NCBI GenBank assembly: GCA_965368815.1
Contig: CBDUOH010000001.1
Coordinates: 33,087 to 97,086 of the forward strand
Direction of reading: 5' to 3'
Length of the DNA stretch: 64,000 nucleotides
Origin: an uncultured Acidimicrobiia bacterium
GTDB taxonomy: Bacteria; Actinomycetota; Acidimicrobiia; Spongiisociales; UBA5794
The translations under genes and the position numbers were made by a program. Below are positions 7,891 through 36,987 of the stretch, in pieces. The notes beneath the pieces were generated by a model, which saw only the letters and a list, made by a program, of their open reading frames with translations, was not told the DNA's origin and ran no database searches. Every line of letters starts with the position of its first letter. The first letter of the stretch is position 1.

Positions 7891-7899
7891 GCGAGGCGG

Positions 7900-9995: not shown

Positions 9996-10031
9996 GTGAT
10001 TCGCCGATGGTCGAGGGCTACGCTGCGGCGC

Positions 10032-11189: not shown

Positions 11190-12605
11190 GGGTTCAGACG
11201 TGATGTTTGGGACTTGGCGGTCCGCGACGAACAGCCACAGGGGGAGTGAAGCCAGGGCGACAAGGTACAAGCCGAAGGCGTATCGGAACTCATGGCTCGG
11301 GGACGTGAAGAACACGTTTGCCAGGTGGAGTACGAAGAGCGCACCGATCAAACGCAGTGGTCGTAGCCGTCGCCGAGCCCATATCGCGGCGAAGGTTGCC
11401 AGACCGGCCAACATCGCCAAGGCCGGCCGCCAGGTGAGCCACTCGATGGCAGAGCGTTCTGCCTCGACATAGAGCCACGAGGTCACGGCGAACGCACGGT
11501 CTGAGACCGGGTCGCGTGTGAGGGCGATGGTGTTGGGCCAAATGTCGTAGGGAGGACGATGCACGAAGGTTCCGGTGCGATTGAACGGCGAGATCAGATA
11601 TTCGCCGGCACACCACCGATGCCCGAGCACTGTCATCGGTGCACCGGCCGCGGAGCGGACGACGAGCCAGCGGTAGTCCCACGGATTGTCCCTGATGGTT
11701 GTGTTGCTGAACTGCTGATCGAACAGCAACGGGGAGCTGTCGCCACACGCATACCGATCCTGCCACACAGGAAGAGGTGCCACGGCCTCGATGAGAGCGA
11801 CGTCGCGGTCCGACAGGGATGCGGGAGCGTGGTTCACCACTGCGGCCACATCGGGCATGAATACTTGTGCTGGCTCGATCGGTTGATCCGTGACCGGGAG
11901 AGCGAGGATGAGTATTGCGGGAATCACGACCCCCACGAACCCGACGGTCGTGGCTGTGACAAACACCCGACGGATCCGTTCGCGCTCGACGATCCCGATC
12001 ACGATCAGGAAGGTGGCCACGGTGTACTTCCCGTTTGCTCGCAAAGCCCACATCAGGCCGAGGCCGATACCGAGGCGACCAGGACCCCACCACGACGCCC
12101 AGAATCTCGAACGGTCGATGGCAAGGAGCAGCAGCTCGGTGAACACCCAGCCCATGGCGATGGCGAAGGGGACATCCTTCCATATCGTCATGGTCATCGC
12201 CCCGGTCATCGGGAGCAGAGCGATGACCCATACCGTCGCGACGCCTACCGACAGGGGGACACCGATCTGGACCAGACGTCTTGCCATGAACCCGAACAGC
12301 GTTGCCATGGCGACAACCTGCAGGAGAGCAACAGCTCCCGGGGTCTCCCACATCAGTGACACAAGCCACATGAGAGATGTGTGGGCGATCGGGTGGGCGG
12401 TGCGGAACTCGAAAGTGAGCACCTGATTCCACTGATCGATCGAGTCGCTGCTCATGAACCCTGGGAACCAGCCGGCCCACCACACGAGAAGCGGGATGAC
12501 CGTTGCCACGCCGAGGGCAAACGCTGCAGTGGATGGACGTTCGAATCGCTTCTTCACAGGGTCAGCAGCGTACGGGAATCGCCCTGATATCACAGGGAAT
12601 GCCAT
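11124..12605 (-). CDS. Polytopic integral membrane protein, GT-C-like (possible polyprenyl-phosphate-sugar-dependent glycosyltransferase or polymerase)
   Basis: Start moved to ATG 12605, with GGAG 5 nt upstream. There are more than 10 predicted TM segments, an acidic first loop (FMSSDSIDQWNQ) and a large extracytoplasmic loop. Function is inferred from topology only. Confidence 0.7.
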   Translation of the reverse strand: MAFPVISGRFPYAADPVKKRFERPSTAAFALGVATVIPLLVWWAGWFPGFMSSDSIDQWNQVLTFEFRTAHPIAHTSLMWLVSLMWETPGAVALLQVVAMATLFGFMARRLVQIGVPLSVGVATVWVIALLPMTGAMTMTIWKDVPFAIAMGWVFTELLLLAIDRSRFWASWWGPGRLGIGLGLMWALRANGKYTVATFLIVIGIVERERIRRVFVTATTVGFVGVVIPAILILALPVTDQPIEPAQVFMPDVAAVVNHAPASLSDRDVALIEAVAPLPVWQDRYACGDSSPLLFDQQFSNTTIRDNPWDYRWLVVRSAAGAPMTVLGHRWCAGEYLISPFNRTGTFVHRPPYDIWPNTIALTRDPVSDRAFAVTSWLYVEAERSAIEWLTWRPALAMLAGLATFAAIWARRRLRPLRLIGALFVLHLANVFFTSPSHEFRYAFGLYLVALASLPLWLFVADRQVPNITSEPLATGVGSPAPIGDEPRGDADR

Positions 12606-12721
12606 CGGATCTCCACGGAACCGAGAATGGGCATGCTTGACGAAATCAAAGGAGAAATCCGGCGGATGGGTACACTTCGGCACCTCGTGGCACCCACCAG
12701 CTGACCCTGGAGTTTTCTTAC

Positions 12722-12907
12722 ATGCGAATCTTTGCCTACCTCGACCCTGCAACCGGGACCTTGATCGTCTCGGCGATCGTCGGCGCCTTTGCTGCCGTAG
12801 CGCTCGTGTTCAAGAACTTCTGGTACAAGATCAAAGGTGCCGTCACCCGCGATGGGTCCGATCGGGTGACTGCGGTGGAAGCATCAACCGAGGATTCGAA
12901 GAACTAG
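12722..12907 (+). CDS. Small single-pass membrane protein (61 aa)
   Basis: ATG start. MRIFAYLDPATGTLIVSAIVGAFAAVALVF is followed by a basic/acidic tail. The N-terminal YLDPxTG motif recalls small conserved proteins I have seen near polysaccharide loci. This rests on memory only. Confidence 0.5.
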   Translation: MRIFAYLDPATGTLIVSAIVGAFAAVALVFKNFWYKIKGAVTRDGSDRVTAVEASTEDSKN

Positions 12908-12929: not shown

Positions 12930-14108
12930 CTAGATCTGGGTCCGCCCGAGGCGATCCTTGGCCAGTTCGACAAGTACCTCGGCACCCGCAGCCGCTGAAC
13001 GGCCGACGTTGTAGACCGCGGTATCGCGAATCGCCGCAAGACGTTCGCGGTATTCGTCAGCCCGGGACAACAGGTTTTCGACTGCTGCCGCCGCCGCAGG
13101 TATGTCACCGGGCTCGACGACGGTTCCGACCTGGTGTCGCATCTGATCCTCGAATGGAACGATCCCGAGCGCTTCCCAACCGGGGTTGTTCACTTTGGGA
13201 GGGACGTCGACGAACAGCACCGGACGTTGCGTGCCGAGCGCGTACTCGAATGATGCACCCGACCAGTCCGAGATGAGCAGATCGGCTTCCATGAAGCTGT
13301 CCTCGCTCGTGATGGAAGTCTCGAGCACGACATTGTCCGTTTGGCCGAAGGTGTGTGCGATCTCGTCGACAATGCCGGCACCCTCCGGGTAGATGGATTC
13401 GAAGAACGCAGGATGTGGTCGCACGACGACGCGGTATCCGGTCGTGGCCAACGCGTCAATCAGCTCGACCCCCTGGGTCGCGAGGATGTTGGCCTTGCCC
13501 CATGACGGTGCCAGGAGCACAGTCTGTCGGTCGGGATGGACCTTGGTGTACCGGTCGTAGCGACCGATGATGCCGTCGAGTTTCGGGTACCCGACGTCGA
13601 ACAGTTGATAATCGGTCTTCCCGATCTTGGCGAAGTGCTTGTCAAGCTCGTCGCGGATGTGCGGACCGGGGCACAGGAACGAGTCATACGCATCGAACGC
13701 CCCGGGCCGATACGCCATGTGGATGCTGTTGAGCGAGTGGAACGCGTAGGTCACATTGGCGTTGCGGGGTCGCTTGATGTGGAACGAGTCGAGGTCGGGC
13801 ATGGTCGTCACGAACACCGGGCTGTCGACGCGGGGCAGGAACGATACGATCGAATCCTTCACCGTATGGACGGTCATCAGGTCGTCGTGATCGTCGATCC
13901 TGGGATCGTCGGGATCCGATGTCACATACACGACGGGCATGTGATGATCCCGGACGACGGATCGGACGTAGGGACCGAGCTGGTTCCATGAATAATCGTC
14001 TTCGGCATAGACGAGTATCGGCCGATCGGTGAGCGGCATCGACAGAATGGCCTGCGCAGTTTCCTTCTCGCGCATCTGGGCCTTGATCTGTTGAAAGAAA
14101 TTCGCCAT
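12930..14108 (-). CDS. TagF-family CDP-alcohol-type phosphotransferase (CDP-glycerol glycerophosphotransferase-like)
   Basis: Start moved to ATG 14108 (MANFFQQ). VLLAPSWG, VVVRPHP and LLISDWSGASFEYALGTQRPVLFV match the Glyphos_transf pattern (LYAPTWR / HP / DYSS..F.. / PiiF). Confidence 0.78.
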   Translation of the reverse strand: MANFFQQIKAQMREKETAQAILSMPLTDRPILVYAEDDYSWNQLGPYVRSVVRDHHMPVVYVTSDPDDPRIDDHDDLMTVHTVKDSIVSFLPRVDSPVFVTTMPDLDSFHIKRPRNANVTYAFHSLNSIHMAYRPGAFDAYDSFLCPGPHIRDELDKHFAKIGKTDYQLFDVGYPKLDGIIGRYDRYTKVHPDRQTVLLAPSWGKANILATQGVELIDALATTGYRVVVRPHPAFFESIYPEGAGIVDEIAHTFGQTDNVVLETSITSEDSFMEADLLISDWSGASFEYALGTQRPVLFVDVPPKVNNPGWEALGIVPFEDQMRHQVGTVVEPGDIPAAAAAVENLLSRADEYRERLAAIRDTAVYNVGRSAAAGAEVLVELAKDRLGRTQI

Positions 14109-14175
14109 GTTTGCCCTTGTCTGTGTCGTCGTGCCGGTCGCTGCCCGGCCCATGATATGGGAATCGGTCCGTTCC

Positions 14176-15306
14176 TCAGGGAAGAGAGGCGACCAATTCG
14201 CTGAGTGCTGACGCGCTGAAATGCCGCGGGTTGCCGGCGAGGCGCTCGGTGTTCACCGACCGGGCCATCCGGTCCCTCGATTCACCTGCGGGAACTCCGA
14301 GTCGTGTGAGGCTGGTCTCGAGTCCCAGCGATGACACGAAGCTTCCCCACGCCGCCCGTGCGTCCGAGACCGGTGACCCCAGGGCATCGGCAACCTCGGC
14401 AATGACGGTCCTGACGTGGGTGCTCCCGCGGTCGTCCACGCAATCTGCATCCGTTGTCTGGCTGTTGAACTCCAGAACCGCACCGAGCGTGAGCGCGACG
14501 GCGTGGCCGTGAGGAATGCCGTAGGTGCTCGTCAGGTGGTACGACAGGGCGTGCGGAGCAGTGGTGGTGGTCTCGTCGATCGCATGCCCTGCGAGATGGG
14601 CTGCTCTGGCCATTGCAGCCCGAGCGGAGGGATCCGGATTGACGACCGCCGTGTGGAGGTTCTCGATCGCGAGGCGCATGGCTTCACGCGCACAAGTCAT
14701 CGAGGTCTCGGTGGATCTCGCGCTCCACAGCGATTCGATTGCCTGGGTGAGCGCGTCGAGTCCGGTTACGGCCGTCGTGTTCGGGGACGCTGAATAGGTG
14801 AGCGTCGGATCCAACACTGCGTGGTCCGGTCGCACCCACTCATGGGCCAGGGAGTGCTTTGTGCCATCGACGTACACGACGGAGAAATGTGTCACCTCGC
14901 TTCCGGTACCGGCGGTGGTCGGTATCGCGATCAGGGGAACAGGCCGGATCGCGATTCCCGATCCGCCAGCCAGGATGATGTCGAGCGGTGGGGTCGGCTG
15001 TGGCGCAAGAACGCGCACGCTCTTGGCGAGGTCGATCACGGACCCTCCTCCAACAGCCACGATGAGATCGGGGCTCGTGTCGGTGTGGCGGTCGATCGCC
15101 GATTCGATGGCCTCGATGGTCGGGTTCGGCGCCACATCGGATACTCGCGTGAGCGCGATGCCGTCGAGTGCTGAATCAATGAGATCGGCGGCGCCCGACT
15201 CCAGATACGAGGATCCACCGGTGAACAGCATCACCTGTCGTGGAGCGGTATGCCGCACGATGTCGGCAACATCCGCAAGTTCACTCCCGGAACAGCAGAC
15301 ACTCAC
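14176..15306 (-). CDS. Iron-type alcohol dehydrogenase, probable phosphonoacetaldehyde reductase (FomC/PhpC-like)
   Basis: VAVGGGSVIDLAK and a His-rich metal site (AHLAGHAI..HGHAV) indicate a group III Fe-ADH. GTG start overlaps the ppd stop (GTGA). The substrate is inferred from context. Confidence 0.8.
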   Translation of the reverse strand: MSVCCSGSELADVADIVRHTAPRQVMLFTGGSSYLESGAADLIDSALDGIALTRVSDVAPNPTIEAIESAIDRHTDTSPDLIVAVGGGSVIDLAKSVRVLAPQPTPPLDIILAGGSGIAIRPVPLIAIPTTAGTGSEVTHFSVVYVDGTKHSLAHEWVRPDHAVLDPTLTYSASPNTTAVTGLDALTQAIESLWSARSTETSMTCAREAMRLAIENLHTAVVNPDPSARAAMARAAHLAGHAIDETTTTAPHALSYHLTSTYGIPHGHAVALTLGAVLEFNSQTTDADCVDDRGSTHVRTVIAEVADALGSPVSDARAAWGSFVSSLGLETSLTRLGVPAGESRDRMARSVNTERLAGNPRHFSASALSELVASLP

Positions 15307-16433
15307 TGGACGCCCAGATGGGTCATGATCGCCCTCTTGTTCTCCTCAGGAGTCGAGGCAGGGCGCCCGAGGTCGCTTCGCGCACCGGACCGGACGACAA
15401 TCTCGAGCAAGGCTGGTCCCGGAGCGGCTATCAGCTCGTCGAGCTTGACGGAGATCTCCGTAGGTGTTTGTGCCGTTGCGGTGCTCCGGTACCCCGCGGC
15501 CGTTGCCAGATCCGGAATCGACGTTCTTGTGAGCGGCGTCGGCTGACCGCCCACAGAGTCATGAACACGGTTGTTGAGGACGATGTGCTTGAAGTTCCCC
15601 GAGCCGTGCTGTGCGATGACCGGTAGTGCACCGAGGTGCATCAGGAGTGCTCCGTCGCCATCGAGGACCCACACCGTGCGTTCGGTTCCCGCAAGGTCGA
15701 TGCCAAGGGCGATCTGGGAGGCATGCCCCATGCCTCCGACGGTCAGGAAGTCCTGTCCACCGTTCCTGCCGGTTTCCTGCCGGTATTCGTAGAGCTCACG
15801 AGACGTCTTGCCTGTGGTGGCCACGAGGACATCGCGCTCGCTGATGACTTCGGCAATCGCCCGGATCGCTTGTTCCCGTGAAACCGGGATGTCGCCGTCG
15901 TCGATGCCGTCGTGCACATAGCTGGCAAACGTTCCGGCCCGCACGACGATTGCGTGTGGGCGAGACTCGGATACAGCCGATGCGACCGTTGATGCGATCT
16001 GCAGTGCTGCTTCGGACTGATCGTCGGCGAGTACCACGTGGGGGATGTCGCTCGCCTCGAGCATGGCTGTCGTCACGATGCCCTGTTTCACGTGCTGAGG
16101 CTCGTCCTTGGTTCCCGGCTCACCTCTCCACCCGATCAACAACACCATGGGAATCCCGTATACCTCGTTGGCCGCCAACGACACAAGCGGGTTGATCGTG
16201 TTGCCGAGACCGGAATTCTGTAGGTATACGACTGCGGGTTTGCCAGTGGCCAGATAGTGGCCCGATGCCAGGGCGACCGCGCCGCCCTCGTTTGCTGCAA
16301 TCACGTGATTCGAGTCCACAACAGTGTCGGTCAGGTAACCGCAGAAGTCCTTGAGGAGTGAATCAGGAACACCCGTCCAGAAGCTGACGCCGGCCTCGGT
16401 GAACGTTGCAAGCGTTGCAGCGGGGTCAAGCAC
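15303..16433 (-). CDS. ppd: Phosphonopyruvate decarboxylase (ThDP-dependent)
   Basis: 376 aa. FWTGVPDSLLKDFCGYL at the N-terminus is characteristic of Ppd/sulfopyruvate decarboxylase. The ThDP motif GDGALLMHLGAL...NN is present. The gene starts 2 nt after the pepM stop. Confidence 0.9.
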   Translation of the reverse strand: MLDPAATLATFTEAGVSFWTGVPDSLLKDFCGYLTDTVVDSNHVIAANEGGAVALASGHYLATGKPAVVYLQNSGLGNTINPLVSLAANEVYGIPMVLLIGWRGEPGTKDEPQHVKQGIVTTAMLEASDIPHVVLADDQSEAALQIASTVASAVSESRPHAIVVRAGTFASYVHDGIDDGDIPVSREQAIRAIAEVISERDVLVATTGKTSRELYEYRQETGRNGGQDFLTVGGMGHASQIALGIDLAGTERTVWVLDGDGALLMHLGALPVIAQHGSGNFKHIVLNNRVHDSVGGQPTPLTRTSIPDLATAAGYRSTATAQTPTEISVKLDELIAAPGPALLEIVVRSGARSDLGRPASTPEENKRAIMTHLGVQ

Positions 16434-16435
16434 CG

Positions 16436-17734
16436 TCAGGCCCCACCCTCGATCAGCGTCAGGATCTCTCTGATGGGCATGCAGAATTCATCGGCCTCAA
16501 GCGCTCGCTTGTGCTCGAGGATCGACAACGCGGTCTTCTCCATGGCGGGATAGGCGGCTCGGAGCAGGTGGTTTGCGTAGATGACGATTTGGAACCCGTG
16601 ATCGCGTAGCTCCTCCTCGGTGACCTGTGCGTAGCCCGATGGAACAGCGATGAGAGGAACCGACATCCCGTTCGCCGCATATTGTTCCGCGAACTGGAAC
16701 AGCTTGGTCGGGTCCTTCTCCTTGTGGTGGGGCATGATGCAGTCCGCCCCCGCTTCGACGTAGAGCTTGGCCCGCTCGATCGCATCGTCCACGGATTTGC
16801 CGAGAATCAAGGATTCGATGCGGGCGATGACGGCGAAATCGCTGGTCACCTGGGCAGCCTTCCCCGCTCGGATCTTGTTGGCGAATGCCACCGGATCATC
16901 CTGTGTCTGATCGACATCCGTCCCGAACAGGGAGTTCTTCTTCAAGCCCACCTTGTCCTCAATGATCACAGCGCTCACGCCGAGGCGTTCCAAGGTCTTG
17001 ACCTGGAACGCGAAGTGCTCGGTGATGCCGCCCGAATCCCCGTCGAGGATGATCGGTTTGGTCGTGACCTCGAGGATGTCCTGGATCGTCTGGAGTCGCG
17101 ACGTCAGGTCGACGTATTCGATGTCCGGCCTGCCCTTGGCCGTCGAGTCGGTGAGGCTCGATATCCAGATCGCATCGAACTCCTCGTTGACGCCGTCGTC
17201 CTTGTAGGCGGTGTGCTCGGCGATCAATCCCGTGAGTCCGTTGTGGGCCTCGATCACCCGGACCGTGGGCTTGGCGTCGAGGAGACGTCGGAATCGGCGC
17301 ATGCGGACCTCAGGAGTCGTTCCGACCTCCTTGACCGCCTTGTTGAGTTGGGTCGACGAGATACCGGGTGTGTATTCGGGCTCGACGAGCTGTCCGCCCC
17401 ACTGTGCAAGCGCGTCGATGACCCTTTGGCGCGTCTTTTGTTGAGGACCGGTCTTCCAGTCGTCGCCATGGACCACATAGTCGGGCTTGAGGGCCATCAG
17501 ATTCGGTACATAGTCCAATGTCTCCTGAGCTACCACCTTGACGACACCCTGGAGTTCGCTCACCACCGCGAACCGGTCACGATACGTCATGTACGGGAGC
17601 CGCTTGTAGCTGGCAATTGCCTCGTCGGTCAGGAGACCAATGGTCACATCGCCCAGTCCGCGGGCAACGTTGAGGACATTGATATGTCCCGGATGGATCA
17701 GATCGGCGCTCATCGCGACGTAGACAGATGGCAT
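16436..17734 (-). CDS. pepM: Bifunctional cytidylyltransferase-PEP phosphomutase (Fom1-like fusion)
   Basis: Start moved to ATG 17734, with GAGGAG upstream. The N-terminal ~135 aa carries [10 protein letters not shown] (HxGH) and [10 protein letters not shown] (RTxGISTT-like), i.e. the TagD/ECT cytidylyltransferase family. The remainder carries [19 protein letters not shown] and [12 protein letters not shown] (the EDKxxxxxNS PepM signature). Confidence 0.9.
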
Positions 17735-17897
17735 GGGTGGTGCTCCTCGGAGGTTGTGACCGCCTCGGTCCTGCTCGACGCGGGCGATACCGCTGCCATT
17801 GCAAGCCGTATCTGGGGACATGATACCGACAGGGATAGGGTTGCGCCGTCACGGATCGTCGGACCTGTTTCAGGTTCATCGTCATACACTTGCCCGG
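17735..17897. promoter_or_regulatory. Divergent intergenic region between the phosphonate operon and the LtaS-like gene (presumed promoters)
   Basis: Positional only: 163 bp between divergent start codons at 17734 (-) and 17898 (+). I could not call -10/-35 elements confidently. Confidence 0.3.
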
Positions 17898-20057
17898 ATG
17901 CCAGAGGACTCGAACGACACATCCACCACGGAGCCTCAGCCCACCGATGTGTCGGTTCAGGATTATCCGTCGTGGTTCCGCCGATCCGTATCGCTGTTCG
18001 CATTGTCGGGATTTGCTGTCGCCCAGCCATTGTTCGGGCTGATAGGTGCAGAACCGGAATTCTGGGTTGCCAGGGACGCCGGCTATCTGGACTTGCTCGT
18101 GCTTGTGATCGGGGTTGTGGCAGTCATCCCCGGTACGCTGCTCGTCGCTGAGTACGTGGTTTCGCGCTTCCACGAACGGGTCAGCTGGTACCTTCATCTT
18201 GCCTTTGTCGCCGGGCTGTCAGCGCTCGTCGGAGTCGACATCCTCGATACCGTGACCGGGGGCGACGTCCGCGGGTTGTATCTCATGGTGGCGGCGGCCT
18301 TGGTCGGGATAGGGCTGGCGGCGGTCTACCTCCGATCGAAATCGCTCCGGGACTTCGTGTCGATCCTTGCGATTGGCCCGGTCGTCTTCACCCTGCTCTT
18401 GGTGTTCTCGGTGCCATCGCTCGGTGCCCCGGACGCTGCGACGGTGGACGCATCGATCGATTCCGAGACGTCCGTTGTCGTGGTTGTCCTCGATGAGTTC
18501 CAGCTGGCAAGCATCCAGAACGCCGACGGGACCATCGACGATTCCCGGTTCCCCAACATCGCCAGACTCGCAGAGCGATCGACGTGGTATCCGTACGCAA
18601 CAACCGTCCACGACAACACCCTCAAGGCTGTTCCAGCGATCTTGACCGGCTCATATCCGAACCCGGATTTCGTTGCAACTGCTGCCGACTACCCGGTGAA
18701 TCTGTTCACCATCCTTGGTGAATCCCACACGATGCGTGTGTCCGAGGATGTGACACAACTGTGCCCGGTGTCTTTGTGCGCGGACACGGATTCGGATGAA
18801 TCGCTGGGCACCCATCTCTTCACCCTGGTGTCCGACACCGCTGTCGTGTACCTCCACACCGTGACCCCGACCACACTTCGATATCGACTGCCCCCGATCG
18901 GGACTCGCTGGGAGGGATTCCTTGTCGACGACGGTGCGCCGTCGGGAACAACGGCGGTGCCGGCTGACCTGGGGGAGTACGAACGCAAGTTCTCGGCCCA
19001 GACCAACGGGGACAAGCGTGCGGTCGGCTACGGACGTTTCCTGGATTCGTTCGACCCCGCTCTCGGCCCGACGTTGTACTACGCGCATGTGGATCTCCCA
19101 CACGCCCCGTGGTCAACCCTTCCCGGTGGAGCGTGGTATCCGTACTCGGATCTGATACCCGGGCAATCCCCACAGGGGGTGTGGACGGGGGATCATTGGT
19201 ATGTCCAGCAGGCGTATCAGCGATTCCAACTCAACGTCGGTTATGTGGATGTGCTCGTGGGGGCAACCCTTGATCGGCTCGACGAATTGGGTATGTTCGA
19301 CGACTCGTTGATCGTCTTCGTTTCGGACCATGGCGAGAACTTCGCAATCAATGAGTCCCGCAGAGCCATCACCGATGTTTCGCTCGCTGCTGTCGGAGGC
19401 ATTCCCCTTTTCGTCAAGTATCCGGGTCAGACAGAACCCGTCCTGTCACAGGCGAATGCGCAGACGGTCGACATTGTTCCCACTGTCGTCGCCGCTCTGG
19501 GGGGGTCTGTGACTGGGTTCGACGGTGCGGTCCTGGATGGTTCCCTACCTTCTGACAAGCGAATCCTGACCAACGCCGGAAGCGAGTACGTGCTTGCCCA
19601 TCAGGATTATGTTGCCCTGGCGGATGAGCACCGAGCAGAAATGCTCGGGCTGTTGCCGGCCGGCAGCGGGTTTCAAGGCGTGTTTACGAGCGCTGGACCA
19701 CGACCCGATCTCAATGGTGTTCCCATAAGTTCGTTTGACATCGTTGAGAGACAGGGTGCTGTTGAACTTCCTGCTCAATCCTTCGTCACAAATTTCGATT
19801 CGTCAGCGAGCATGGATCCTGTGGGGGTGCCCGCAGTGATCTCGTTCGGAAACGCCGAGGATCGGACAGAACACTTTGCGATAGCTGTGAACGGAATCAT
19901 CCGTACGACGATTACCGCCTACCTCGCTGACGGTGGATCGGTCACGCTGTACGCCGTGGTACCGCAGGGGTCCTTTGCGCACGGCTCGAACGAGGTCGAG
20001 GTGTTCGGCATCGGCGGCTCGACAAACGAGCCCGTTCTGGTTCGCTACAGCCGTTAG
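17898..20057 (+). CDS. Membrane-anchored alkaline-phosphatase-superfamily transferase (LtaS / phosphoglycerol- or phosphoethanolamine-transferase-like)
   Basis: Start moved to ATG 17898. About five N-terminal TM helices precede an extracytoplasmic domain with VVVVLDEF, NTLKAVPAILTG (Thr-nucleophile-type rather than the CxPxR sulfatase type) and FVSDHGENF. Confidence 0.8.
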   Translation: MPEDSNDTSTTEPQPTDVSVQDYPSWFRRSVSLFALSGFAVAQPLFGLIGAEPEFWVARDAGYLDLLVLVIGVVAVIPGTLLVAEYVVSRFHERVSWYLHLAFVAGLSALVGVDILDTVTGGDVRGLYLMVAAALVGIGLAAVYLRSKSLRDFVSILAIGPVVFTLLLVFSVPSLGAPDAATVDASIDSETSVVVVVLDEFQLASIQNADGTIDDSRFPNIARLAERSTWYPYATTVHDNTLKAVPAILTGSYPNPDFVATAADYPVNLFTILGESHTMRVSEDVTQLCPVSLCADTDSDESLGTHLFTLVSDTAVVYLHTVTPTTLRYRLPPIGTRWEGFLVDDGAPSGTTAVPADLGEYERKFSAQTNGDKRAVGYGRFLDSFDPALGPTLYYAHVDLPHAPWSTLPGGAWYPYSDLIPGQSPQGVWTGDHWYVQQAYQRFQLNVGYVDVLVGATLDRLDELGMFDDSLIVFVSDHGENFAINESRRAITDVSLAAVGGIPLFVKYPGQTEPVLSQANAQTVDIVPTVVAALGGSVTGFDGAVLDGSLPSDKRILTNAGSEYVLAHQDYVALADEHRAEMLGLLPAGSGFQGVFTSAGPRPDLNGVPISSFDIVERQGAVELPAQSFVTNFDSSASMDPVGVPAVISFGNAEDRTEHFAIAVNGIIRTTITAYLADGGSVTLYAVVPQGSFAHGSNEVEVFGIGGSTNEPVLVRYSR

Positions 20058-23000
20058 CGATCGGACAACGAGCTGATTGCGTCGTCGTAGGCCTCGAGCA
20101 TCCGGTTCAGGGTCAGCTCCTCGGGCAGTTCGATACCGAGTTCTTTGTCACCAGCCACGAGCTTGAGCGTCGTGTCGACGAACTCATCGACACGTTTTGG
20201 GTGTGTCAGATGGAGTCCTCGGACGTGCTCGAGTTCCGGAAGTCCACCGACGGCGGTCGCAACGACGGGTGTACCGACGGCCAATGACTCCATCGCCGTG
20301 AGCGGAATGCCCTCGATCTTGGACGGGAGCACGGCCGCCGAACTTGTGGCAAGGAGTGGGTACGGATCCGAGATCCTCTTGAGCCAGATGATCGCGTCGT
20401 GTCGTTTGAAATCATCGCCAAGCTTCTTCCGCAGCGGTCCTGTGCCGACGATCACCACCTTGGCACCGAGTGGCTCGAGTGCGTCTGCGAGTGGTAGCAG
20501 CCACTTCGGCCGCTTCTCCTTGGAGAGGCGGCCGACGAAGGAAACGAGCTGCGTTGTCGAGTCGACTCCGAGCTCTCGGCGGATCTCATCGATCTCGGGT
20601 TGTGTCACAGAACGAGGTTCGATGCCGATGTACACGGTCTGATGCGGATCATCGTCCTCCAGGTCAAGTGCGTCACGCAGGTCGCGGTACGCAGTCACCG
20701 TGAGGTCGATCGACTTGCGGGCTTTGGCATTGCCCGCAACGTGACCGGAGTCGTTGAACTGCTGATCGATGATTCGCACGTCCGGGCAATCGGCTTTGAG
20801 TCGGGCGGCGTGGTGGTACAGCCACGCGGATCCAATGTTCATCACAGTCGCGTTCGGGAGTGCCCTGACTACGGACCGTACGAAGCCGTACCAATGCTGG
20901 GGAGGCAGGATGCTTGGTAGCTGATAGGCGTACGGTGTGATGTCGAGGAGATCATCGATGCGGTCCTTCATGCCTTCGTCGACGCCGACGGTGGCGATGA
21001 CGACGACGGTGCGTCCGGATTCCTGCCAGTGCCGAGTCAGGTTCTCGACGACGGTGTCGGCTCCGCCGACCGTGAACCATGGCACCGTAAGGATGATCGG
21101 GTCTGCGTCGCCTGTCGGGATTGCAGGAGGCGTGAAGTCGAGGAGCAGCGGTTCCGCTCCGTGGGTGCGCGTGTTGGCAACCCACTCGAGCTGTGGATGT
21201 CGGTCCCGGATGAGGTCTCCAAGCTCCGCCCTGAAGTCGCGAGCTGCCGCATCGCGGGACTCTGACGGGTCCGACGAGTGGCGATACTCGAACAACGCCT
21301 CGCGGATGACCCGCCCTCGGAAACCGAGCGCTGCGGCATGTGTCCAGAACTCCCAGTCCTCGAAGCCCCTGTCCATGTCAGAGGAGAACCCGCCGGTCCT
21401 CTCAAACACCTCTCGGCGGAACATCGCACACACGGGGACGTGGTTGCCGTCTGCGATGGTCTTGGGATCGAGGTTCTGTGTCTCCCACACTTCTTCGACC
21501 GACCCGATGCTTCGCTGCCATGGATAGACGATCGCCGTGTCTGGCTGGCTCCGCAGGAACAGTGCCGCCTTCTCGAGATACGTCGGATGTATGGTGTCGT
21601 CCGGGTCGAGACAGACCATGAATTCCCCGCGTGCGAGGCGCATCGCGGCGTTCCTGGCAGCCACGACGCCACGATTGGTGCTCCGCACCACCGTAAGCCG
21701 GGGGAGGTCCTCCAGTGCTTCGAGCTCGGCAATCGTCGCCGGATCGGTCGAGCCGTCGTCCCACACGATGACTTCTACGTCGCGAAGCGTCTGATTGAGG
21801 ACGCTGTCGATCGACTCACGGATTGTGCGACCCTTGTTGTACACCGGCATGATCACGGACACCAAGACCCCCGGAGCCGGCAGACCCGGTTCGATTGGTT
21901 CGGTGTCGAAGAAATCCCCAGCGCGATCATCGTCATCAGGACGACCTCGCGGGGTGAGACGCTTGAGATTCCACAGTGAACTTGCGATCTTCCATGCCCG
22001 CGAGGCATAGATGCCATCGAGGGTCGCCGCGTGTCTGTCGGCGCGCTTGCGTTCCTCGTCAGCTACATCGACGGCGTGGAGCCTCCTCGCCTCGGACCAT
22101 TCCAGAGCGCCGCTGAGATCCCGAGCAGCCATCTCTGCTCGCCGCGCACGTTCCTCGGCCTCGTGCGCCTCCTGCCGTGCCTGATCGACCAACGTCTCCA
22201 CCAGATGTTCGGGCCCGTCGTACGAAGAATCACCACCGATGGTGTCCTCAATGACGCTCTTGAGTGTCTCGGCCGCATCGAGTCGCTGATGCATGCGCTG
22301 GAAGCCGGCCGTGAGGCCCGGCTCGGCTATGCCGAGCATGGTCGTGAGGTCGTCGACGACCTCGATCAGGAGCTGGGCAGCGAGTGGGTCCTCGTTCTCC
22401 GAGTCACCGAGCACACGATGCTCCAGGAGGCGCATCGCTCGATAGATCTCGCCACGATTGCGAAATACCTGGGCGGTCACCGTCGCGAGGTCGGCATCGG
22501 AACCGCCGAGTTCTCGCGCTCGCTCAAGAGCATCGTCGGCGAGGCTGGGGACGAAGAACTTCGCCGCCATCAGGCTGGTGGCAATCGCTTCGTCGATGGT
22601 TCTGATCGCCTCGATGGTTGCTTCACCGTTGAGAATGTCGAAGATCTTCTGTTCGGGTGTGCTCTGTGCCGGTACAGAGCGGATAACCCCCAGCGCCGCC
22701 GACACGGTCTGTCCCCATTGCTCGACGTTGGGTGTGTAGAGCGTGAGGGAGCCATCGCCGAATACCTCCTCGCACGCTGATTTCAGGAGAGTCGGGTTGA
22801 GATACAGCGTGTGATCGAACGACTTGTTGAAATCCAATGCCTGTGCCCCGTATGACCGGATGATGTCGTCCGTGACATTGGGAACGAGGAACACGAACAC
22901 GCCGTCGTCGGCCATGATCGACTTGAGGCCCGCGAGCGTCGCCCTGAGATCCCCCACATGCTCAAGGACCTCGAGGGCGGTCACGACATCGAATTGCTGA

Positions 23001-23497: not shown

Positions 23498-23553
23498 CGG
23501 GCTCCTGACAGCTCGTGGACTCAAGGCGGAAGGCTACCCGCCGTTTCCTGTGA

Positions 23554-24423: not shown

Positions 24424-25130
24424 CCGCCGAGGAACCGTGACGGATCCGACGAGAAGACGTTGGTACCGGTCTCAAGGTCTTCGAGACGTCCGAGGTCGAG
24501 CCAATAGGCGTCGGGCTGGCTGACAGCGACCCGCAGCCCTGCATCGCGGAATCGACGGATCAGATCAGGCATGTCGAGGCGCTCGCCCGGTTCGAGATGG
24601 GACCGAAGGGCGTCGACGGTCAGGATGTTGGTCCCCATCGAGACGAGGTACCGCATCGTTGGTTTCTCCGAGTACCCGGACAGGAGACCTTCAGTGTCGA
24701 CTTCGAGGACACCGAAGTCGACATGCACGACGCGTTCGTTCGACATGATCGTCGCAGCATCACTGGTGTTGTGGTCCCGATAGGCGGCAGCGAAGTCAAG
24801 GTCGGTCAGTGTGTCGCCGTTGACGACGAGCACCCGGTCGTCAGGGAATTCCGATATCAGGCCGAGGCTCCCCACCGTCCCCAAAGGTGTGTCCTCATAG
24901 ACATAGTCGATCGATACGTCCCACTTCGATCCATCGCCGCAGAAGCTCTCGATGAGCGTGGCAAGATGCCCCACGGAAATCGTGATTCGTTCGAAGCCTT
25001 GGGTACCGAGCTGTTTGATCAAGAGCTCGATGATCGGGATGTCACCGATGGGAACGAGCGGTTTCGGGATCGCAAAGGTGAACGGGGCGAGGCGGCTGCC
25101 CTTGCCGCCGGCGAGTATCACGGCGTGCAT
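24420..25130 (-). CDS. Sugar-1-phosphate nucleotidyltransferase
   Basis: MHAVILAGGKGSRLAPFTFAIPKPLVPI is the canonical G-x-G-t-R-L NTP-transferase signature. GGAGGA RBS upstream. Confidence 0.85.
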   Translation of the reverse strand: MHAVILAGGKGSRLAPFTFAIPKPLVPIGDIPIIELLIKQLGTQGFERITISVGHLATLIESFCGDGSKWDVSIDYVYEDTPLGTVGSLGLISEFPDDRVLVVNGDTLTDLDFAAAYRDHNTSDAATIMSNERVVHVDFGVLEVDTEGLLSGYSEKPTMRYLVSMGTNILTVDALRSHLEPGERLDMPDLIRRFRDAGLRVAVSQPDAYWLDLGRLEDLETGTNVFSSDPSRFLGG

Positions 25131-25139
25131 GTCGTCCTC

Positions 25140-36985: not shown

Positions 36986-36987
36986 AC

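What the first reader, a model, noticed from the sequence alone, without database searches (positions are those of the whole stretch)
12930..20057. Fom1/Fom2/FomC-like hydroxyethylphosphonate module operonic with a TagF-like transferase: candidate phosphonate teichoic-acid analogue
SEEN:
- Four co-directional, tightly spaced minus-strand genes run from 17734 to 12930, with a 2-nt gap at 16434-16435 and a GTGA overlap at 15303-15306.
- The first protein fuses a TagD/ECT-type cytidylyltransferase domain (HPGH; [10 protein letters not shown]) to a PEP mutase domain. That domain carries [12 protein letters not shown], the EDKxxxxxNS signature that separates true PepM from other isocitrate-lyase-superfamily enzymes.
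- Next come a phosphonopyruvate decarboxylase and an Fe-type alcohol dehydrogenase. No aminotransferase is present.

ESTABLISHED (from memory):
- PepM + Ppd + Fe-ADH yields 2-hydroxyethylphosphonate (HEP).
- The same CyTase-PepM fusion is Fom1 of Streptomyces fosfomycin biosynthesis, whose CyTase domain forms CMP-HEP.
- HEP-bearing phosphonoglycans have been reported from a few actinomycetes.

INFERENCE:
- No Fom3-type radical-SAM methyltransferase or HppE epoxidase is present.
- Instead the operon ends in a TagF-family enzyme (VLLAPSWG, VRPHP, LLISDWSG) and faces an LtaS/EptA-like membrane transferase. It sits among GTs, WecB and a TagGH/Wzm-Wzt-type exporter.
- The only cytidylyltransferase in the cluster is the one fused to PepM.
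- CMP-HEP is a close mimic of CDP-glycerol. The TagF-like enzyme may therefore cap a glycan with HEP, or polymerise HEP through phosphonate-ester bonds into a poly(HEP) teichoic-acid analogue.
- I am not aware of a described TagF-family enzyme that uses a CMP-phosphonate donor.
Basis: partly seen in the sequence, partly recalled or inferred. Interest (0 to 1): 0.85.

Follow-up and report, generated by a model that had tools for sequence, protein, structure and literature searches.

The report
Hydroxyethylphosphonate operon with TagF-like transferase
An uncultured actinobacterium carries a four-gene operon that should make the nucleotide-activated C-P compound CMP-hydroxyethylphosphonate and ends in a teichoic-acid-type transferase; the same gene set recurs in uncultured bacteria of about eight phyla, which makes this transferase a concrete, testable candidate for the still unidentified enzyme that attaches phosphonates to cell-surface polymers.

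Summary
Four tightly packed minus-strand genes encode:
- a Fom1-type cytidylyltransferase-PEP mutase fusion
- phosphonopyruvate decarboxylase
- an Fe-alcohol dehydrogenase
- a 392-aa TagF-like GT-B protein

They face a 5-TM alkaline-phosphatase-superfamily membrane protein, inside a glycan cluster (glycosyltransferases, WecB, ABC-2 exporter).

The cytidylyltransferase domain is 68% identical to the Fom1 domain that makes CMP-HEP.

The TagF-like protein belongs to a large, mostly unnamed subfamily, found here only in uncultured genomes. In 21 of 24 assessable species-level genomes it lies within 3 kb of PepM-Ppd-ADH. The link holds where PepM is fused to a different nucleotidyltransferase.

Best reading: the enzyme transfers HEP from CMP-HEP onto a membrane-bound envelope acceptor.

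A poly(HEP) polymer is not supported, because the protein lacks the extra N-terminal domain of known TagF-type polymerases.

The membrane partner has LtaS/EptA-like architecture, but its fold is nearest to phosphonate-monoester hydrolases and sulfatases. Fusions of YidC-like, TagF-like and AP domains in other bacteria hint at an inside-to-outside relay.

HEP-glycans and Fom1-like fusions are already known. The transferase link appears undescribed in the literature I could search.

I rate it a new variant of a known kind, of moderately high interest.

The parts
16436..17734 (-). Bifunctional cytidylyltransferase (res. 1-~140) - PEP mutase (res. ~145-432), Fom1-like
   Evidence: - Domains PF01467 plus PF13714; TIGR02320 at 373 bits, above its cutoff.
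- [10 protein letters not shown] motif present.
- CyTase domain 68% identical to Fom1 CyTase 5X3D, E 3e-57.
- The likely start is the ATG at 17734, from the alignment with homologues.
15303..16433 (-). Phosphonopyruvate decarboxylase (Ppd/Fom2-like)
   Evidence: TIGR03297 at 458 bits against a cutoff of 312. TPP_enzyme_N and TPP_enzyme_C domains. A 2-nt gap separates it from the upstream gene.
14176..15306 (-). Group III Fe-alcohol dehydrogenase, putative phosphonoacetaldehyde reductase (PhpC/FomC-like)
   Evidence: Fe-ADH plus ADH_Fe_C domains. The best NCBIfam model is the phosphonate-associated Fe-ADH TIGR03405, but at 200 bits it is below the cutoff of 424. GTGA overlap with Ppd. It always follows Ppd in related loci.
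12930..14108 (-). TagF-like GT-B phosphotransferase (392 aa), proposed CMP-HEP:acceptor HEP-phosphonyl transferase
   Evidence: - PF04464 at 34.6 bits, partial coverage.
- AF2 model pLDDT 93.5. Foldseek best matches are TagF 3L7K/3L7I at E 1e-13, with TarL 8VA1 also listed.
- Family-invariant F123-H124, APSW, R-P-H232-P and DxSGA..EYA.
- Syntenic with the HEP trio in 21 of 24 assessable genomes.
17898..20057 (+). 5-TM membrane protein with extracytoplasmic alkaline-phosphatase-superfamily ('Sulfatase') domain, Thr nucleophile type
   Evidence: - PF00884 hit and 5 hydrophobic helices at residues 30-171.
- Conserved D198, T240 and D476-H477, with no CxPxR motif.
- AF2 pLDDT 87.8. Foldseek best matches are phosphonate monoester hydrolases and S1 sulfatases at E 6e-12; PbgA ranks 45.
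- AP-superfamily membrane proteins adjoin the TagF-like gene in 20 of 29 genome loci.
11124..12752 (-). Polytopic membrane protein DUF6020, downstream of the TagF-like gene
   Evidence: PF19484 at 31 bits. About 7 hydrophobic helices. Conserved next to the TagF-like gene in the closest relatives L006, L007, L008, L010, L016 and L036.
9777..11189 (+). GT2 family glycosyltransferase with C-terminal TM helices (true start probably downstream of 9777)
   Evidence: Glyco_trans_2_3 / Glyco_tranf_2_3 hits. Conserved next to DUF6020 in L006, L007 and L016.
8886..10178 (-). UDP-GlcNAc 2-epimerase (WecB/MnaA)
   Evidence: TIGR00236 at 252 bits against a cutoff of 210; PF02350.
20054..23524 (-). Trifunctional methyltransferase-GT2-GT4 protein (1156 aa)
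   Evidence: Methyltransf_23, Glycos_transf_2 and Glycos_transf_1 domains. Homologues are present in L008, L016 and L036.
23554..26147 (-). NDP-deoxyhexose genes: reductase/epimerase (23554-24423), sugar-1-P nucleotidyltransferase (24420-25130), 4,6-dehydratase (25140-26147)
   Evidence: Pfam and NCBIfam hits. The same three genes lie near the HEP operon in L008, L010, L011 and L036.
26053..28581 (+). GT2-GT4 bifunctional glycosyltransferase
   Evidence: Pfam hits.
28666..30239 (+). ABC-2 type exporter (permease 28666-29496, ATPase 29451-30239), TagGH/Wzm-Wzt type
   Evidence: ABC2_membrane and ABC_tran hits. The same pair lies next to the HEP genes in L036 and L037.
2538..8889 (.). Further glycosyltransferases (2538-3707, 3641-6283, 6010-7890 on +; 7900-8889 on -)
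   Evidence: GT4 and GT2 Pfam hits.

Best explanation
**Proposed pathway**
1. The operon converts PEP to phosphonopyruvate (PepM domain).
2. Ppd converts that to phosphonoacetaldehyde.
3. The Fe-ADH reduces it to 2-hydroxyethylphosphonate (HEP).
4. The Fom1-type N-terminal domain activates HEP with CTP to CMP-HEP.
5. The last gene encodes a TagF-like GT-B phosphotransferase working at the cytoplasmic face of the membrane. It uses CMP-HEP in place of CDP-glycerol. An acceptor hydroxyl, activated by the conserved His124, attacks the phosphonyl phosphorus. CMP leaves, and HEP ends up as a phosphonate monoester on a membrane-bound envelope intermediate.

The acceptor is most likely the lipid-linked glycan built by the surrounding glycosyltransferases and exported by the ABC-2 transporter. 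One or a few HEP groups are added as a cap or side group, not a long polymer.

The divergently transcribed 5-TM AP-superfamily enzyme acts on the same phosphonate ester outside the membrane. It either passes it on to a final acceptor or trims it.

**Shown versus inferred**
- Shown: domain identities, fold, conserved synteny, fusions.
- Inferred: donor, acceptor, number of transfers, role of the AP enzyme.
For: **The CMP-HEP module**
- PepM with the EDKxxxxxNS motif, and Ppd, both score above their curated cutoffs.
- The CyTase domain is 68% identical to the Fom1 domain, E 3e-57. It matches TagD 1COZ only at E 2e-5. Fom1's HEP cytidylyltransferase activity is published (Cho 2017, as cited in PMC6697681).

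**The TagF-like enzyme**
- Confident AF2 model, whose best PDB matches are TagF, with TarL and the Bcs3 capsule enzyme also listed.
- Two family-invariant His residues sit just after beta-strands in the N and C halves. This matches the two essential His of TagF/TarL (PMC10901376).
- H124 aligns with a His inside the PF04464-matched stretch of the fusion protein P0238.

**Linkage**
- 21 of 24 assessable GTDB species genomes with this subfamily have PepM, Ppd and ADH within 3 kb. The phyla covered are Actinomycetota, Acidobacteriota, Planctomycetota, Chloroflexota, Vulcanimicrobiota and Xenobia.
- In L023 and L024 the PepM is fused to the unrelated PF12804 nucleotidyltransferase, yet keeps the same TagF-like neighbour.
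- In L004 and L017, which lack PepM, a separate NTP_transf_3 gene is adjacent.
- Seen from the PepM side, the gene abutting the trio is a TagF-superfamily gene in 11-12 of about 52 loci and a CDP-alcohol-phosphotransferase-like gene in about 7. That position therefore appears to hold the consumer of CMP-HEP.

**Envelope context and size**
- Envelope genes surround the operon, and no small-molecule tailoring genes were found.
- At 392 aa with no extra N-terminal domain, the protein matches the non-polymerase TagF-like members rather than polymerases.
Against: - No biochemical data exist for any member of this subfamily.
- The Pfam match is weak and partial, and no PDB protein is detectable by sequence.
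- The catalytic-His equivalence rests on alignment and secondary structure, not on a structural superposition.
- Three assessable genomes (L017, L028, L031) and L004 carry the TagF-like gene without PepM nearby. The family is therefore not phosphonate-specific as a whole.
- Most Fom1-like trios in metagenomes have no detectable TagF-like neighbour within the DNA held.
- The ADH scores below the curated cutoff for the phosphonate-associated family.
- In L001/L014 and L002 no glycosyltransferases lie nearby, so the acceptor need not be the neighbouring glycan.
Confidence: 0.6

Rival explanations
1. **Inside-to-outside relay.** The TagF-like enzyme does not decorate the final polymer. It loads HEP from CMP-HEP onto a membrane lipid carrier, for example a glycerolipid or polyprenol-linked primer. 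The HEP-lipid is translocated across the membrane. The 5-TM AP-superfamily enzyme then transfers HEP, through a Thr-phosphonyl intermediate, to the final extracellular acceptor or acceptors. This parallels how LtaS, EptA and GacH use lipid head groups.
For: - AP-superfamily membrane proteins are almost as constant a neighbour of the TagF-like gene as PepM: 20 of 29 loci. They remain adjacent where PepM is absent (L004, L017, L028) and occur in 2-8 copies per locus in one subgroup.
- Single polypeptides fuse a YidC-like membrane domain, a TagF-like domain and an AP domain (P0238, P0224). Their TM counts are roughly compatible with TagF-like inside and AP outside.
- The 5-gene module stands alone without glycosyltransferases in a Planctomycetota genome.
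- The AP domain keeps its metal ligands and has Thr at the nucleophile position. Its nearest folds include phosphonate monoester hydrolases.
- From memory of Yu et al. 2014 (paper not held): hydrolysis of actinomycete HEP-glycans yielded a HEP glycerol ester as well as a HEP hexose ester.
Against: - No TagF-family enzyme is known to act on a simple lipid acceptor.
- Foldseek does not separate phosphonate monoester hydrolases from ordinary sulfatases (E 6e-12 against 2e-11).
- The AP enzyme could equally be a hydrolase, or a transferase of an unrelated group such as glycerol phosphate.
- No YidC-like gene lies near the operon in this window.
- Terriglobia loci L001 and L014 have the TagF-like gene and the trio but no AP gene within 10 kb.
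Confidence: 0.2
2. **Poly(HEP) teichoic-acid analogue.** The TagF-like enzyme is processive. It uses the 2-hydroxyl of the last HEP as acceptor and builds a poly(hydroxyethylphosphonate) chain on a linkage unit.
For: - The fold is closest to the polymerase TagF.
- HEP offers a primary hydroxyl comparable to that of glycerol phosphate (chemistry).
- WecB and a TagGH-type exporter are present, as in wall teichoic acid loci.
Against: - The protein is a bare GT-B of 392 aa. According to PMC10901376, TagF-like polymerases carry an additional N-terminal domain, and non-polymerase members such as TagB add a single unit.
- From memory of Yu et al. 2014, the only characterised HEP-glycans carry HEP as monoesters on sugars or glycerol.
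- No TagO, TagA or LCP genes turned up among the window ORFs scanned.
Confidence: 0.08
3. **The TagF-like enzyme uses a conventional CDP-alcohol.** The donor would be CDP-glycerol or similar, made elsewhere in the genome. Under this reading the synteny reflects only shared envelope function. HEP would be attached by another enzyme, such as the AP-superfamily protein or an unrecognised transferase, or would be released as a free metabolite.
For: - The family has members without PepM nearby.
- The Pfam family to which it weakly belongs is defined by CDP-glycerol enzymes.
Against: - No glycerol-3-phosphate or ribitol-phosphate cytidylyltransferase turned up among the window ORFs scanned.
- Translational coupling and a fixed gene order hold across phyla. 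The linkage also survives a swap of nucleotidyltransferase type.
- In other trios the same position is filled by other CMP-donor-type transferases.
Confidence: 0.09
4. **Small-molecule phosphonate pathway.** The operon would make a fosfomycin-like compound or a methylphosphonate precursor, in which CMP-HEP is only a transient intermediate.
For: The Fom1/Fom2/FomC-like trio is the opening of fosfomycin biosynthesis.
Against: - No Fom3-type radical-SAM methyltransferase, HppE, FomD, MpnS/HEPD-like cupin, ATP-grasp or NRPS gene was found among the window ORFs scanned or in the syntenic loci examined.
- The neighbours are glycosyltransferases and exporters.
Confidence: 0.03

Closest known systems
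Fom1-Fom2-FomC, the first steps of fosfomycin biosynthesis in Streptomyces (Cho et al. 2017, as cited in PMC6697681)
   Same: - The same N-terminal PF01467 cytidylyltransferase fused to PEP mutase; the CyTase domain is 68% identical to Fom1 (5X3D).
- The same follow-on enzymes, Ppd and a Fe-ADH.
- The expected product is CMP-HEP.
   Different: Fom3, Fom4 (HppE) and FomD are absent. In fosfomycin synthesis the CMP group is transient and removed by hydrolysis. Here a transferase gene follows, and the context is envelope glycan synthesis.
HEP-phosphonoglycan clusters of Glycomyces sp. [quoted passage not shown] 2014; cited in PMC8942020, PMC13576164)
   Same: - An actinobacterial PepM-Ppd-Fe-ADH module sits among glycosyltransferases, methyltransferase domains and exporters.
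- HEP is found esterified to polysaccharide. This is the only experimentally characterised product of this kind of locus.
   Different: - I could not obtain those clusters or the paper, so whether they contain this TagF-like subfamily or the AP-superfamily partner is untested.
- My genome scan with subfamily-specific patterns returned only uncultured genomes, and neither of these two genera.
- The attaching enzyme was not identified in the literature I could read.
TagF/TagB/TarF/TarL CDP-glycerol or CDP-ribitol phosphotransferases of wall teichoic acid synthesis (PF04464; PDB 3L7I, 8VA1)
   Same: - GT-B fold, with TagF the best structural match.
- Conserved His after a beta-strand in each half, and APSW / RPHP / SDWSG motifs in the expected order.
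- Peripheral, nucleotide-dependent chemistry that releases CMP.
   Different: - Only a weak, partial Pfam match, with no sequence-level PDB hit.
- F-H-S replaces the W-H pair described for TarL.
- No N-terminal polymerase domain.
- The proposed donor is a phosphonic-phosphoric anhydride (CMP-HEP) rather than a CDP-alcohol.
- The subfamily was found here only in uncultured lineages, and is often misnamed 'YidC/Oxa1 insertase'.
PntC/LicC-LicD type decoration (CMP-AEP, CDP-choline) of surface glycans (Rice et al. 2019, PMC6697681)
   Same: The logic is the same: a small head group is cytidylylated by a nucleotidyltransferase often fused to PepM, then transferred to a surface glycan.
   Different: The nucleotidyltransferase family differs in most loci (PF01467 against PF12804). 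The head group is HEP rather than AEP or choline. The proposed transferase is a TagF-like GT-B, not LicD. Downstream transferases for CMP-phosphonates were left unidentified in that work.
LtaS/EptA/PbgA-type membrane-anchored AP-superfamily enzymes, and soluble phosphonate monoester hydrolases (PDB 2VQR, 2W8S, 9GVE)
   Same: - Like LtaS, EptA and PbgA: 5 N-terminal TM helices plus an outside AP-superfamily domain, with metal ligands D198 and D476-H477, and Thr at the nucleophile position.
- Like the phosphonate monoester hydrolases and S1 sulfatases: the nearest fold.
   Different: - Not detectably closer to LtaS or EptA than to sulfatases.
- It lacks the Cys/Ser-x-Pro-x-Arg formylglycine motif of sulfatases and phosphonate monoester hydrolases.
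- It has an extra C-terminal beta-rich domain (residues ~610-718).
- Its substrate is unknown.

Membership tests
True PEP mutase (PepM/Ppm) | EDKxxxxxNS active-site motif and a score above the curated equivalog cutoff | tested here: met
   [12 protein letters not shown] is present. TIGR02320 scores 373.2 bits against a cutoff of 319.55; methylisocitrate lyase and PnPy hydrolase models fall far below their cutoffs.
Fom1-type HEP cytidylyltransferase | N-terminal PF01467 domain with HxGH, fused to PepM, closely related to the characterised Fom1 domain | tested here: met
   PF01467 hit. HPGH motif. 68% identity over 136 residues to 5X3D, E 3e-57, compared with ethanolamine-phosphate cytidylyltransferase (3ELB) at 2e-12 and TagD at 2e-5.
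Fom1-type HEP cytidylyltransferase | Catalyses CTP + HEP -> CMP-HEP + PPi | not testable with these tools
   Needs an enzyme assay.
Phosphonopyruvate decarboxylase | TPP enzyme scoring above the equivalog cutoff | tested here: met
   TIGR03297 scores 457.6 bits against a cutoff of 312.5.
Phosphonoacetaldehyde reductase (PhpC/FomC/DhpG type Fe-ADH) | Group III Fe-ADH belonging to the phosphonate-associated clade | tested here: inconclusive
   The Fe-ADH domains are clear. TIGR03405 is the best NCBIfam hit, but at 199.9 bits it is below the cutoff of 423.7. The assignment rests on its fixed position after Ppd.
TagF/TagB family (PF04464, CDP-alcohol phosphotransferases) | Match to the family profile above the gathering score | tested here: met
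   34.6 bits against a cutoff of 22.1, but covering only profile positions 148-291 of 367. No NCBIfam hit and no PDB hit by sequence.
TagF/TagB family (PF04464, CDP-alcohol phosphotransferases) | GT-B fold most similar to TagF/TarL | tested here: met
   AF2 pLDDT 93.5. Foldseek rank 1-2 are TagF 3L7K/3L7I (E 1e-13, TM 0.59), TarL is at rank 16 and Bcs3 at rank 27. Generic GT-B enzymes follow from E 1e-10.
TagF/TagB family (PF04464, CDP-alcohol phosphotransferases) | Two invariant catalytic histidines (base in the N-half, leaving-group contact in the C-half) | tested here: inconclusive
   H124 and H232 are invariant in 18 family members, and each follows a beta-strand in its half. H124 aligns with a His inside the PF04464-matched stretch of P0238. 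No structural superposition was possible. The preceding residue is F, where TarL has the stacking W299.
TagF-type polymerases (TagF, TarL, TarK) | Additional N-terminal domain preceding the GT-B domain | tested here: not met
   The protein is 392 aa. The model is one N-terminal helix plus the two Rossmann halves. The requirement is stated in PMC10901376.
TagF/TagB family (PF04464, CDP-alcohol phosphotransferases) | Uses CDP-glycerol or CDP-ribitol as donor | not testable with these tools
   Context argues for CMP-HEP instead, but only an assay can decide.
LtaS/EptA-type membrane phosphotransferases | N-terminal multi-TM anchor plus extracytoplasmic AP-superfamily domain with metal ligands and a Thr nucleophile | tested here: met
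   5 hydrophobic helices at residues 30-171. PF00884 hit. D198, T240 and D476-H477 conserved in 22 homologues, with T240 at a helix N-terminus and no CxPxR. The nucleophile assignment relies on motif spacing recalled from sulfatases and EptA.
LtaS/EptA-type membrane phosphotransferases | Catalytic domain closest to LtaS/EptA rather than to other AP-superfamily branches | tested here: not met
   By sequence, the best PDB hits are phosphonate monoester hydrolase and choline sulfatase (6e-9 to 4e-8), with the LTA primase at 3e-4 and LtaS at 0.16. By fold, the top 44 matches are phosphonate monoester hydrolases and sulfatases, with PbgA at rank 45.
Fosfomycin biosynthetic cluster | Fom3 (B12 radical-SAM methyltransferase), Fom4/HppE epoxidase and FomD present | tested here: not met
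   No such domains appear in any window ORF scanned.
HEP-phosphonoglycan gene cluster (Glycomyces/Stackebrandtia type) | PepM-Ppd-Fe-ADH embedded among glycosyltransferases, methyltransferase and polysaccharide export genes | tested here: met
   Gene content of window 2.5-30 kb.
HEP-phosphonoglycan gene cluster (Glycomyces/Stackebrandtia type) | Gene-by-gene orthology with the published clusters; HEP detected on a polysaccharide | not tested
Detecting the product needs chemistry.

The most novel reading that the evidence does not exclude
The TagF-like protein and the AP-superfamily membrane protein are the two catalytic halves of a previously unrecognised, phylum-spanning envelope-decoration relay.
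- A cytoplasmic GT-B enzyme loads a nucleotide-activated head group onto a membrane carrier. Here the head group is the phosphonate HEP; elsewhere it would be other NDP-alcohols.
- The carrier is translocated across the membrane. In some Firmicutes-like proteins a fused YidC-like domain may do this.
- An extracytoplasmic Thr-nucleophile AP-superfamily enzyme transfers the head group onto final acceptors.

This would be the general route by which HEP esters reach bacterial polysaccharides, including those that accumulate in environmental organic matter.
Probability: 0.2. Interest if true: 0.8.

Novelty: new variant of a known kind. Interest (0 to 1): 0.62.

Why it matters
**The gap in the field.** About half of bacterial phosphonate gene clusters are thought to decorate cell surfaces. 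Yet the steps after cytidylylation 'remain enigmatic' (PMC6697681), and no enzyme that hangs a phosphonate on a glycan or lipid has been characterised in the literature I could search.

**Environmental relevance.** HEP esterified to polysaccharide is reported as a major phosphonate form in marine high-molecular-weight organic matter. HEP catabolism is widespread, which implies an abundant but poorly explained source (PMC8942020, PMC13576164).

**What this locus offers.**
- A specific, compact candidate: a 392-aa soluble GT-B enzyme, with a conserved 5-TM partner.
- Synteny across about eight phyla of uncultured bacteria, which makes the hypothesis directly testable in vitro with CMP-HEP.

**What a positive result would give.**
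- An extension of the chemistry of the teichoic-acid transferase family from phosphodiester to phosphonate-ester formation.
- A marker gene for HEP-glycan producers in metagenomes.
- A correction for a widespread misannotation ('YidC/Oxa1 insertase').

Tried and rejected
**Searches that gave nothing**
1. Sequence searches of the TagF-like protein and its family profile against PDB gave no true hit. Only the fold comparison worked.
2. I tried to read Yu et al. 2014 (PMC3993330) and Yu et al. 2013 (PMC3870699) to compare with the characterised HEP-glycan clusters. Neither is held.
3. Supplements of PMC8942020 and PMC6697681 contained nothing on PF04464 or sulfatases.
4. I hoped the PepM-fusion homologue search would return the Stackebrandtia protein so that I could fetch its locus. 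The top 120 hits were all metagenomic.

**Readings considered and rejected**
5. A small-molecule (fosfomycin or methylphosphonate) reading is rejected, because no tailoring genes were found among the window ORFs scanned or in the syntenic loci.
6. Treating the facing gene as a bona fide sulfatase or phosphonate-monoester hydrolase is rejected. The formylglycine motif is absent and Thr occupies that position.
7. The C. difficile flagellin type A paper (PMC8861647) was a text-search hit but has no bearing on this locus.

**Uninformative or weak results**
8. The promoter and terminator scans were uninformative: 0 promoter-like sites, and terminator-like sites at chance level.
9. Crude hydropathy TM counts for the fusion proteins are only roughly consistent with the proposed topology, and I do not lean on them.

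Full report
**1. The observation**

The ORF map and the junction sequences confirm four co-directional minus-strand genes.
- 16436-17734: the fusion protein.
- 15303-16433: starts 2 nt after the fusion's stop codon.
- 14176-15306: GTGA start/stop overlap with the preceding gene.
- 12930-14108: ATG 14153 is also possible, but homologues begin at the residue encoded at 14108.

Pfam and NCBIfam give the following.
- Fusion: CTP_transf_like plus PEP_mutase, with TIGR02320 above its cutoff.
- Second gene: phosphonopyruvate decarboxylase, TIGR03297 well above its cutoff.
- Third gene: a group III Fe-ADH. Its best NCBIfam model is the phosphonate-associated one, but it scores below that model's cutoff.
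- Fourth gene: a weak, partial Glyphos_transf match.

The divergent plus-strand gene (17898-20057) has five N-terminal hydrophobic helices and a Sulfatase/AP-superfamily domain.

The neighbourhood from about 2.5 to 41 kb is envelope-related.
- Several GT2/GT4 proteins, including a methyltransferase-GT2-GT4 fusion.
- WecB.
- A deoxyhexose trio: nucleotidyltransferase, 4,6-dehydratase and reductase.
- An ABC-2 exporter and a GH26-like protein.
- Peptidoglycan enzymes.

No aminotransferase, radical-SAM, cupin, ATP-grasp or NRPS gene turned up among the window ORFs scanned.

The statement 'only cytidylyltransferase' needs a nuance. A sugar-1-phosphate nucleotidyltransferase lies at 24420-25130.

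**2. The HEP module**

The N-terminal domain is 68% identical over 136 residues to the crystallised Fom1 cytidylyltransferase domain (5X3D, E 3e-57). It is far from glycerol-3-phosphate cytidylyltransferase TagD (E 2e-5).

Fom1's domain converts HEP and CTP to CMP-HEP, as summarised in PMC6697681. JGI already names close homologues 'phosphoenolpyruvate phosphomutase / 2-hydroxyethylphosphonate cytidylyltransferase'.

Formation of CMP-HEP is therefore a well-founded inference. It has not been shown for this protein.

**3. The TagF-like protein**

A search of 5.8 billion proteins found 539 relatives. Almost all are unnamed metagenomic proteins of about 385 aa. Some are labelled 'CDP-glycerol glycerophosphotransferase family' and many 'YidC/Oxa1 family membrane protein insertase'.

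An 18-member alignment (A1) shows invariant F123-H124, APSW, R-P-H232-P and DxSGA..EYA.

The AlphaFold model is confident (pLDDT 93.5). Its best PDB matches are the teichoic-acid polymerase TagF (3L7K/3L7I, E 1e-13), with TarL and the Bcs3 capsule enzyme further down. Generic GT-B enzymes follow. Sequence-only searches of PDB find nothing.

According to the TarL paper (PMC10901376):
- TagF-like enzymes need two invariant histidines;
- the polymerases of the family carry an extra N-terminal domain.

The window protein has two invariant His residues in the corresponding halves. Each sits just after a beta-strand. H124 aligns with a His inside the Pfam-matched region of a relative.

The window protein has no extra N-terminal domain. 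By size and architecture it resembles the non-polymerase members of the family.

A profile search of 1.84 billion cluster representatives shows the family is large: 979 clusters at E<=1e-30.

**4. Conserved linkage, from the TagF-like side**

Scanning one genome per species (GTDB) with subfamily patterns returned 29 loci. All are from uncultured genomes:
- Acidimicrobiia and other Actinomycetota;
- Gaiellaceae;
- Acidobacteriota/Terriglobia;
- Vulcanimicrobiota and Xenobia;
- Planctomycetota;
- Chloroflexota;
- one alphaproteobacterial single-cell genome.

HMM and BLAST mapping gives these counts.
- 21 loci have PepM, Ppd and ADH within 3 kb of the TagF-like gene. The usual order is fusion, Ppd, ADH, TagF-like.
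- 5 of the remaining loci are cut off less than 500 nt upstream and cannot be assessed.
- 3 loci (L017, L028, L031) truly lack the trio within 10 kb.

That gives 21 of 24 assessable loci.

Pfam-annotated contigs tell the same story. They include a five-gene stand-alone module in a Planctomycetota genome: AP-protein, TagF-like, fusion, Ppd, ADH.

Two loci (L023, L024) are especially telling. Their PepM is fused at its C-terminus to the unrelated PF12804 (LicC/PntC-type) nucleotidyltransferase, yet they keep Ppd, ADH, the TagF-like gene and the AP partner.

In two PepM-less loci (L004, L017), a separate NTP_transf_3 protein and a methyltransferase sit beside the TagF-like/AP pair.

The common denominator is a neighbouring nucleotidyltransferase. 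That is what one expects if the TagF-like enzyme consumes its product.

**5. Conserved linkage, from the PepM side**

Three contigs holding distant Fom1-like fusions were inspected.
- A deltaproteobacterial operon runs Wzm/Wzt, fusion, Ppd, ADH, and then a more canonical Glyphos_transf. That protein is only 28% identical to the window protein over its C-half.
- A second operon has a CDP-alcohol-phosphotransferase-like gene in that position.
- The third is a fragmentary Ignavibacteria locus with a weak TagF-like signal after the ADH.

A metagenome scan gave 80 loci, with about 52 holding the whole trio.
- 11-12 have a TagF-superfamily ORF directly abutting the trio.
- About 7 have a CDP-OH-transferase-like ORF there.
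- Many of the rest are too short to judge, or continue with Wzx flippases and glycosyltransferases.

The Fom1-like trio is thus much more widespread than this TagF-like subfamily. The gene next to it is repeatedly an enzyme class that uses CMP-linked donors.

**6. The membrane partner**

AP-superfamily membrane proteins lie within 4 kb of the TagF-like gene in 20 of 29 genome loci. They come in two forms:
- the window type, about 600-850 aa;
- a roughly 515-aa type, present in 2-8 copies per locus.

The window protein's 22-member alignment conserves D198, T240, H396/H401 and D476-H477, and lacks a CxPxR formylglycine motif.

The T240...G250 spacing equals the Cys...LTG spacing of sulfatases, and resembles the T-x-x-S-V-P-x-M-F motif of EptA. 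Both comparisons are from my memory. T240 sits at a helix N-terminus in the model.

By sequence and by fold the domain is nearest to phosphonate monoester hydrolases and S1 sulfatases. LtaS-type enzymes score far lower, and full-length PbgA is at rank 45. So it is 'LtaS/EptA-like' in architecture and probable nucleophile, but not in nearest kinship.

The top rank of the phosphonate monoester hydrolases is suggestive, since a HEP-glycan bond is a phosphonate monoester. It is not statistically separable from ordinary sulfatases.

**7. Fusions**

Among family representatives are single polypeptides that combine three domains: a YidC/60KD_IMP-like membrane domain, the TagF-like domain and an AP-superfamily domain. 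Examples are P0238 and P0224; others are YidC-like plus TagF-like only.

This explains the odd JGI names. It also ties the TagF-like and AP activities together independently of gene order. Crude TM counts are roughly compatible with a cytoplasmic TagF-like domain and an external AP domain.

I read this as support for a two-compartment process, possibly a relay through a lipid-bound intermediate. None of that is shown.

**8. Mechanism and alternatives**

| Reading | Confidence |
|---|---|
| CMP-HEP is made by the first three proteins, and the TagF-like enzyme transfers the HEP-phosphonyl group to a hydroxyl of a membrane-bound envelope acceptor, releasing CMP | ~0.6 |
| Relay: the acceptor is a lipid carrier that the AP enzyme later unloads outside | ~0.2 |
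| Conventional CDP-alcohol donor | ~0.09 |
| Poly(HEP) | ~0.08 |
| Small-molecule pathway | ~0.03 |

Under the best reading, the acceptor may be the neighbouring glycan directly.

- Poly(HEP) is disfavoured by the missing polymerase domain.
- A conventional CDP-alcohol donor is disfavoured by three points: no such cytidylyltransferase was found in the window, the genes are translationally coupled, and the linkage survives a nucleotidyltransferase swap.
- A small-molecule pathway has no tailoring genes.

**9. Comparison with what is known**

Already known:
- Fom1-like fusions: 23.6% of PepM proteins carry PF01467 (PMC6697681).
- HEP as a branch point: 8.5% of ppm neighbourhoods (PMC8942020).
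- HEP-bearing exopolysaccharides of Glycomyces and Stackebrandtia (Yu 2014, cited).
- An association of sulfatase-family genes with some ppm clusters.

Searches combining phosphonate/PepM terms with teichoic, TagF-like, PF04464, Glyphos_transf and glycerophosphotransferase, and searches for CMP-HEP, CMP-AEP and related transferase terms, found no paper on such a transferase.

The 2019 survey states that the steps after cytidylylation are unknown.

I could not compare the window directly with the published phosphonoglycan clusters. That is the main gap in the novelty assessment.

**10. Verdict**

The locus is a new member of the HEP-glycan type of cluster.

The added value lies in two points.
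- A distinct, widespread and so far unnamed TagF-like subfamily, with its AP-superfamily partner, is the conserved companion of CMP-HEP synthesis in uncultured bacteria.
- That makes it the best available candidate for the missing phosphonyl transferase.

I rate it a new variant of a known kind, with interest about 0.6.

Noticed in passing
window 58395-62594: A DeoC/LacD-type aldolase (58395-59237), an aldehyde dehydrogenase (60527-61990) and a protein with two BMC shell-domain stretches (61968-62594) lie together. This may be the edge of a bacterial microcompartment locus in this actinobacterial genome.
   Followed up: no
window 49359-50378: A nickel superoxide dismutase gene (49917-50378) is transcribed divergently from an S26 signal-peptidase-like gene (49359-49874). 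This is the usual SodN/SodX maturation pair.
   Followed up: no
proteins P0238, P0224, P0230, P0242, P0252, P0265 (family representatives, not in the window): Multi-domain proteins fuse a YidC/60KD_IMP-like membrane domain to the TagF-like domain, and in two cases also to an AP-superfamily 'Sulfatase' domain. Many stand-alone family members are named 'YidC/Oxa1 family membrane protein insertase' by JGI, apparently by annotation transfer from such fusions.
   Followed up: partly
L023:5746-7434 and L024:5048-6700: In Xenobia and Vulcanimicrobiota genomes the PEP mutase carries a C-terminal PF12804 (LicC/PntC-type) nucleotidyltransferase instead of the N-terminal PF01467 domain. It is still followed by Ppd and Fe-ADH and flanked by the TagF-like and AP-superfamily genes.
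   Followed up: partly
L004:3522-12993 and L017:8076-13184: These TagF-like/AP-protein pairs have no PepM within 10 kb. They sit next to a methyltransferase and an NTP_transf_3 protein. In L004 there is also a 1004-aa PEP-utiliser/Rph-like protein. This suggests the same transferase pair handles a different, phosphate-based head group there.
   Followed up: partly
L019-L022, L028-L030, L032 (e.g. L019:3027-4535, 4754-6361, 11436-12944): One subgroup of loci carries 2-8 paralogous copies of a roughly 515-aa membrane-anchored AP-superfamily protein around the HEP/TagF-like operon. A GT2 and a polytopic membrane protein of unknown family accompany them.
   Followed up: partly
L039:13694-14521; also L050, L064, L085, L091, L098, L104: In some Fom1-like/Ppd/ADH operons the adjacent gene is a CDP-alcohol-phosphotransferase-like membrane protein instead of a TagF-like one. 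This may be a route to HEP-containing lipids.
   Followed up: no
window 11124-12752: A DUF6020 polytopic membrane protein lies directly downstream of the TagF-like gene. It is conserved there in the closest Acidimicrobiia relatives. Its role (glycan polymerase, ligase or acceptor handling) is unknown.
   Followed up: no
window 1-2390 and 33052-41309: The glycan cluster is bracketed by peptidoglycan-related genes: an M15 peptidase with FG-GAP repeats, a CAP-domain protein, an M23 peptidase, a YkuD L,D-transpeptidase and a SpoIID-like protein. MurJ lies at 50375-52009.
   Followed up: no
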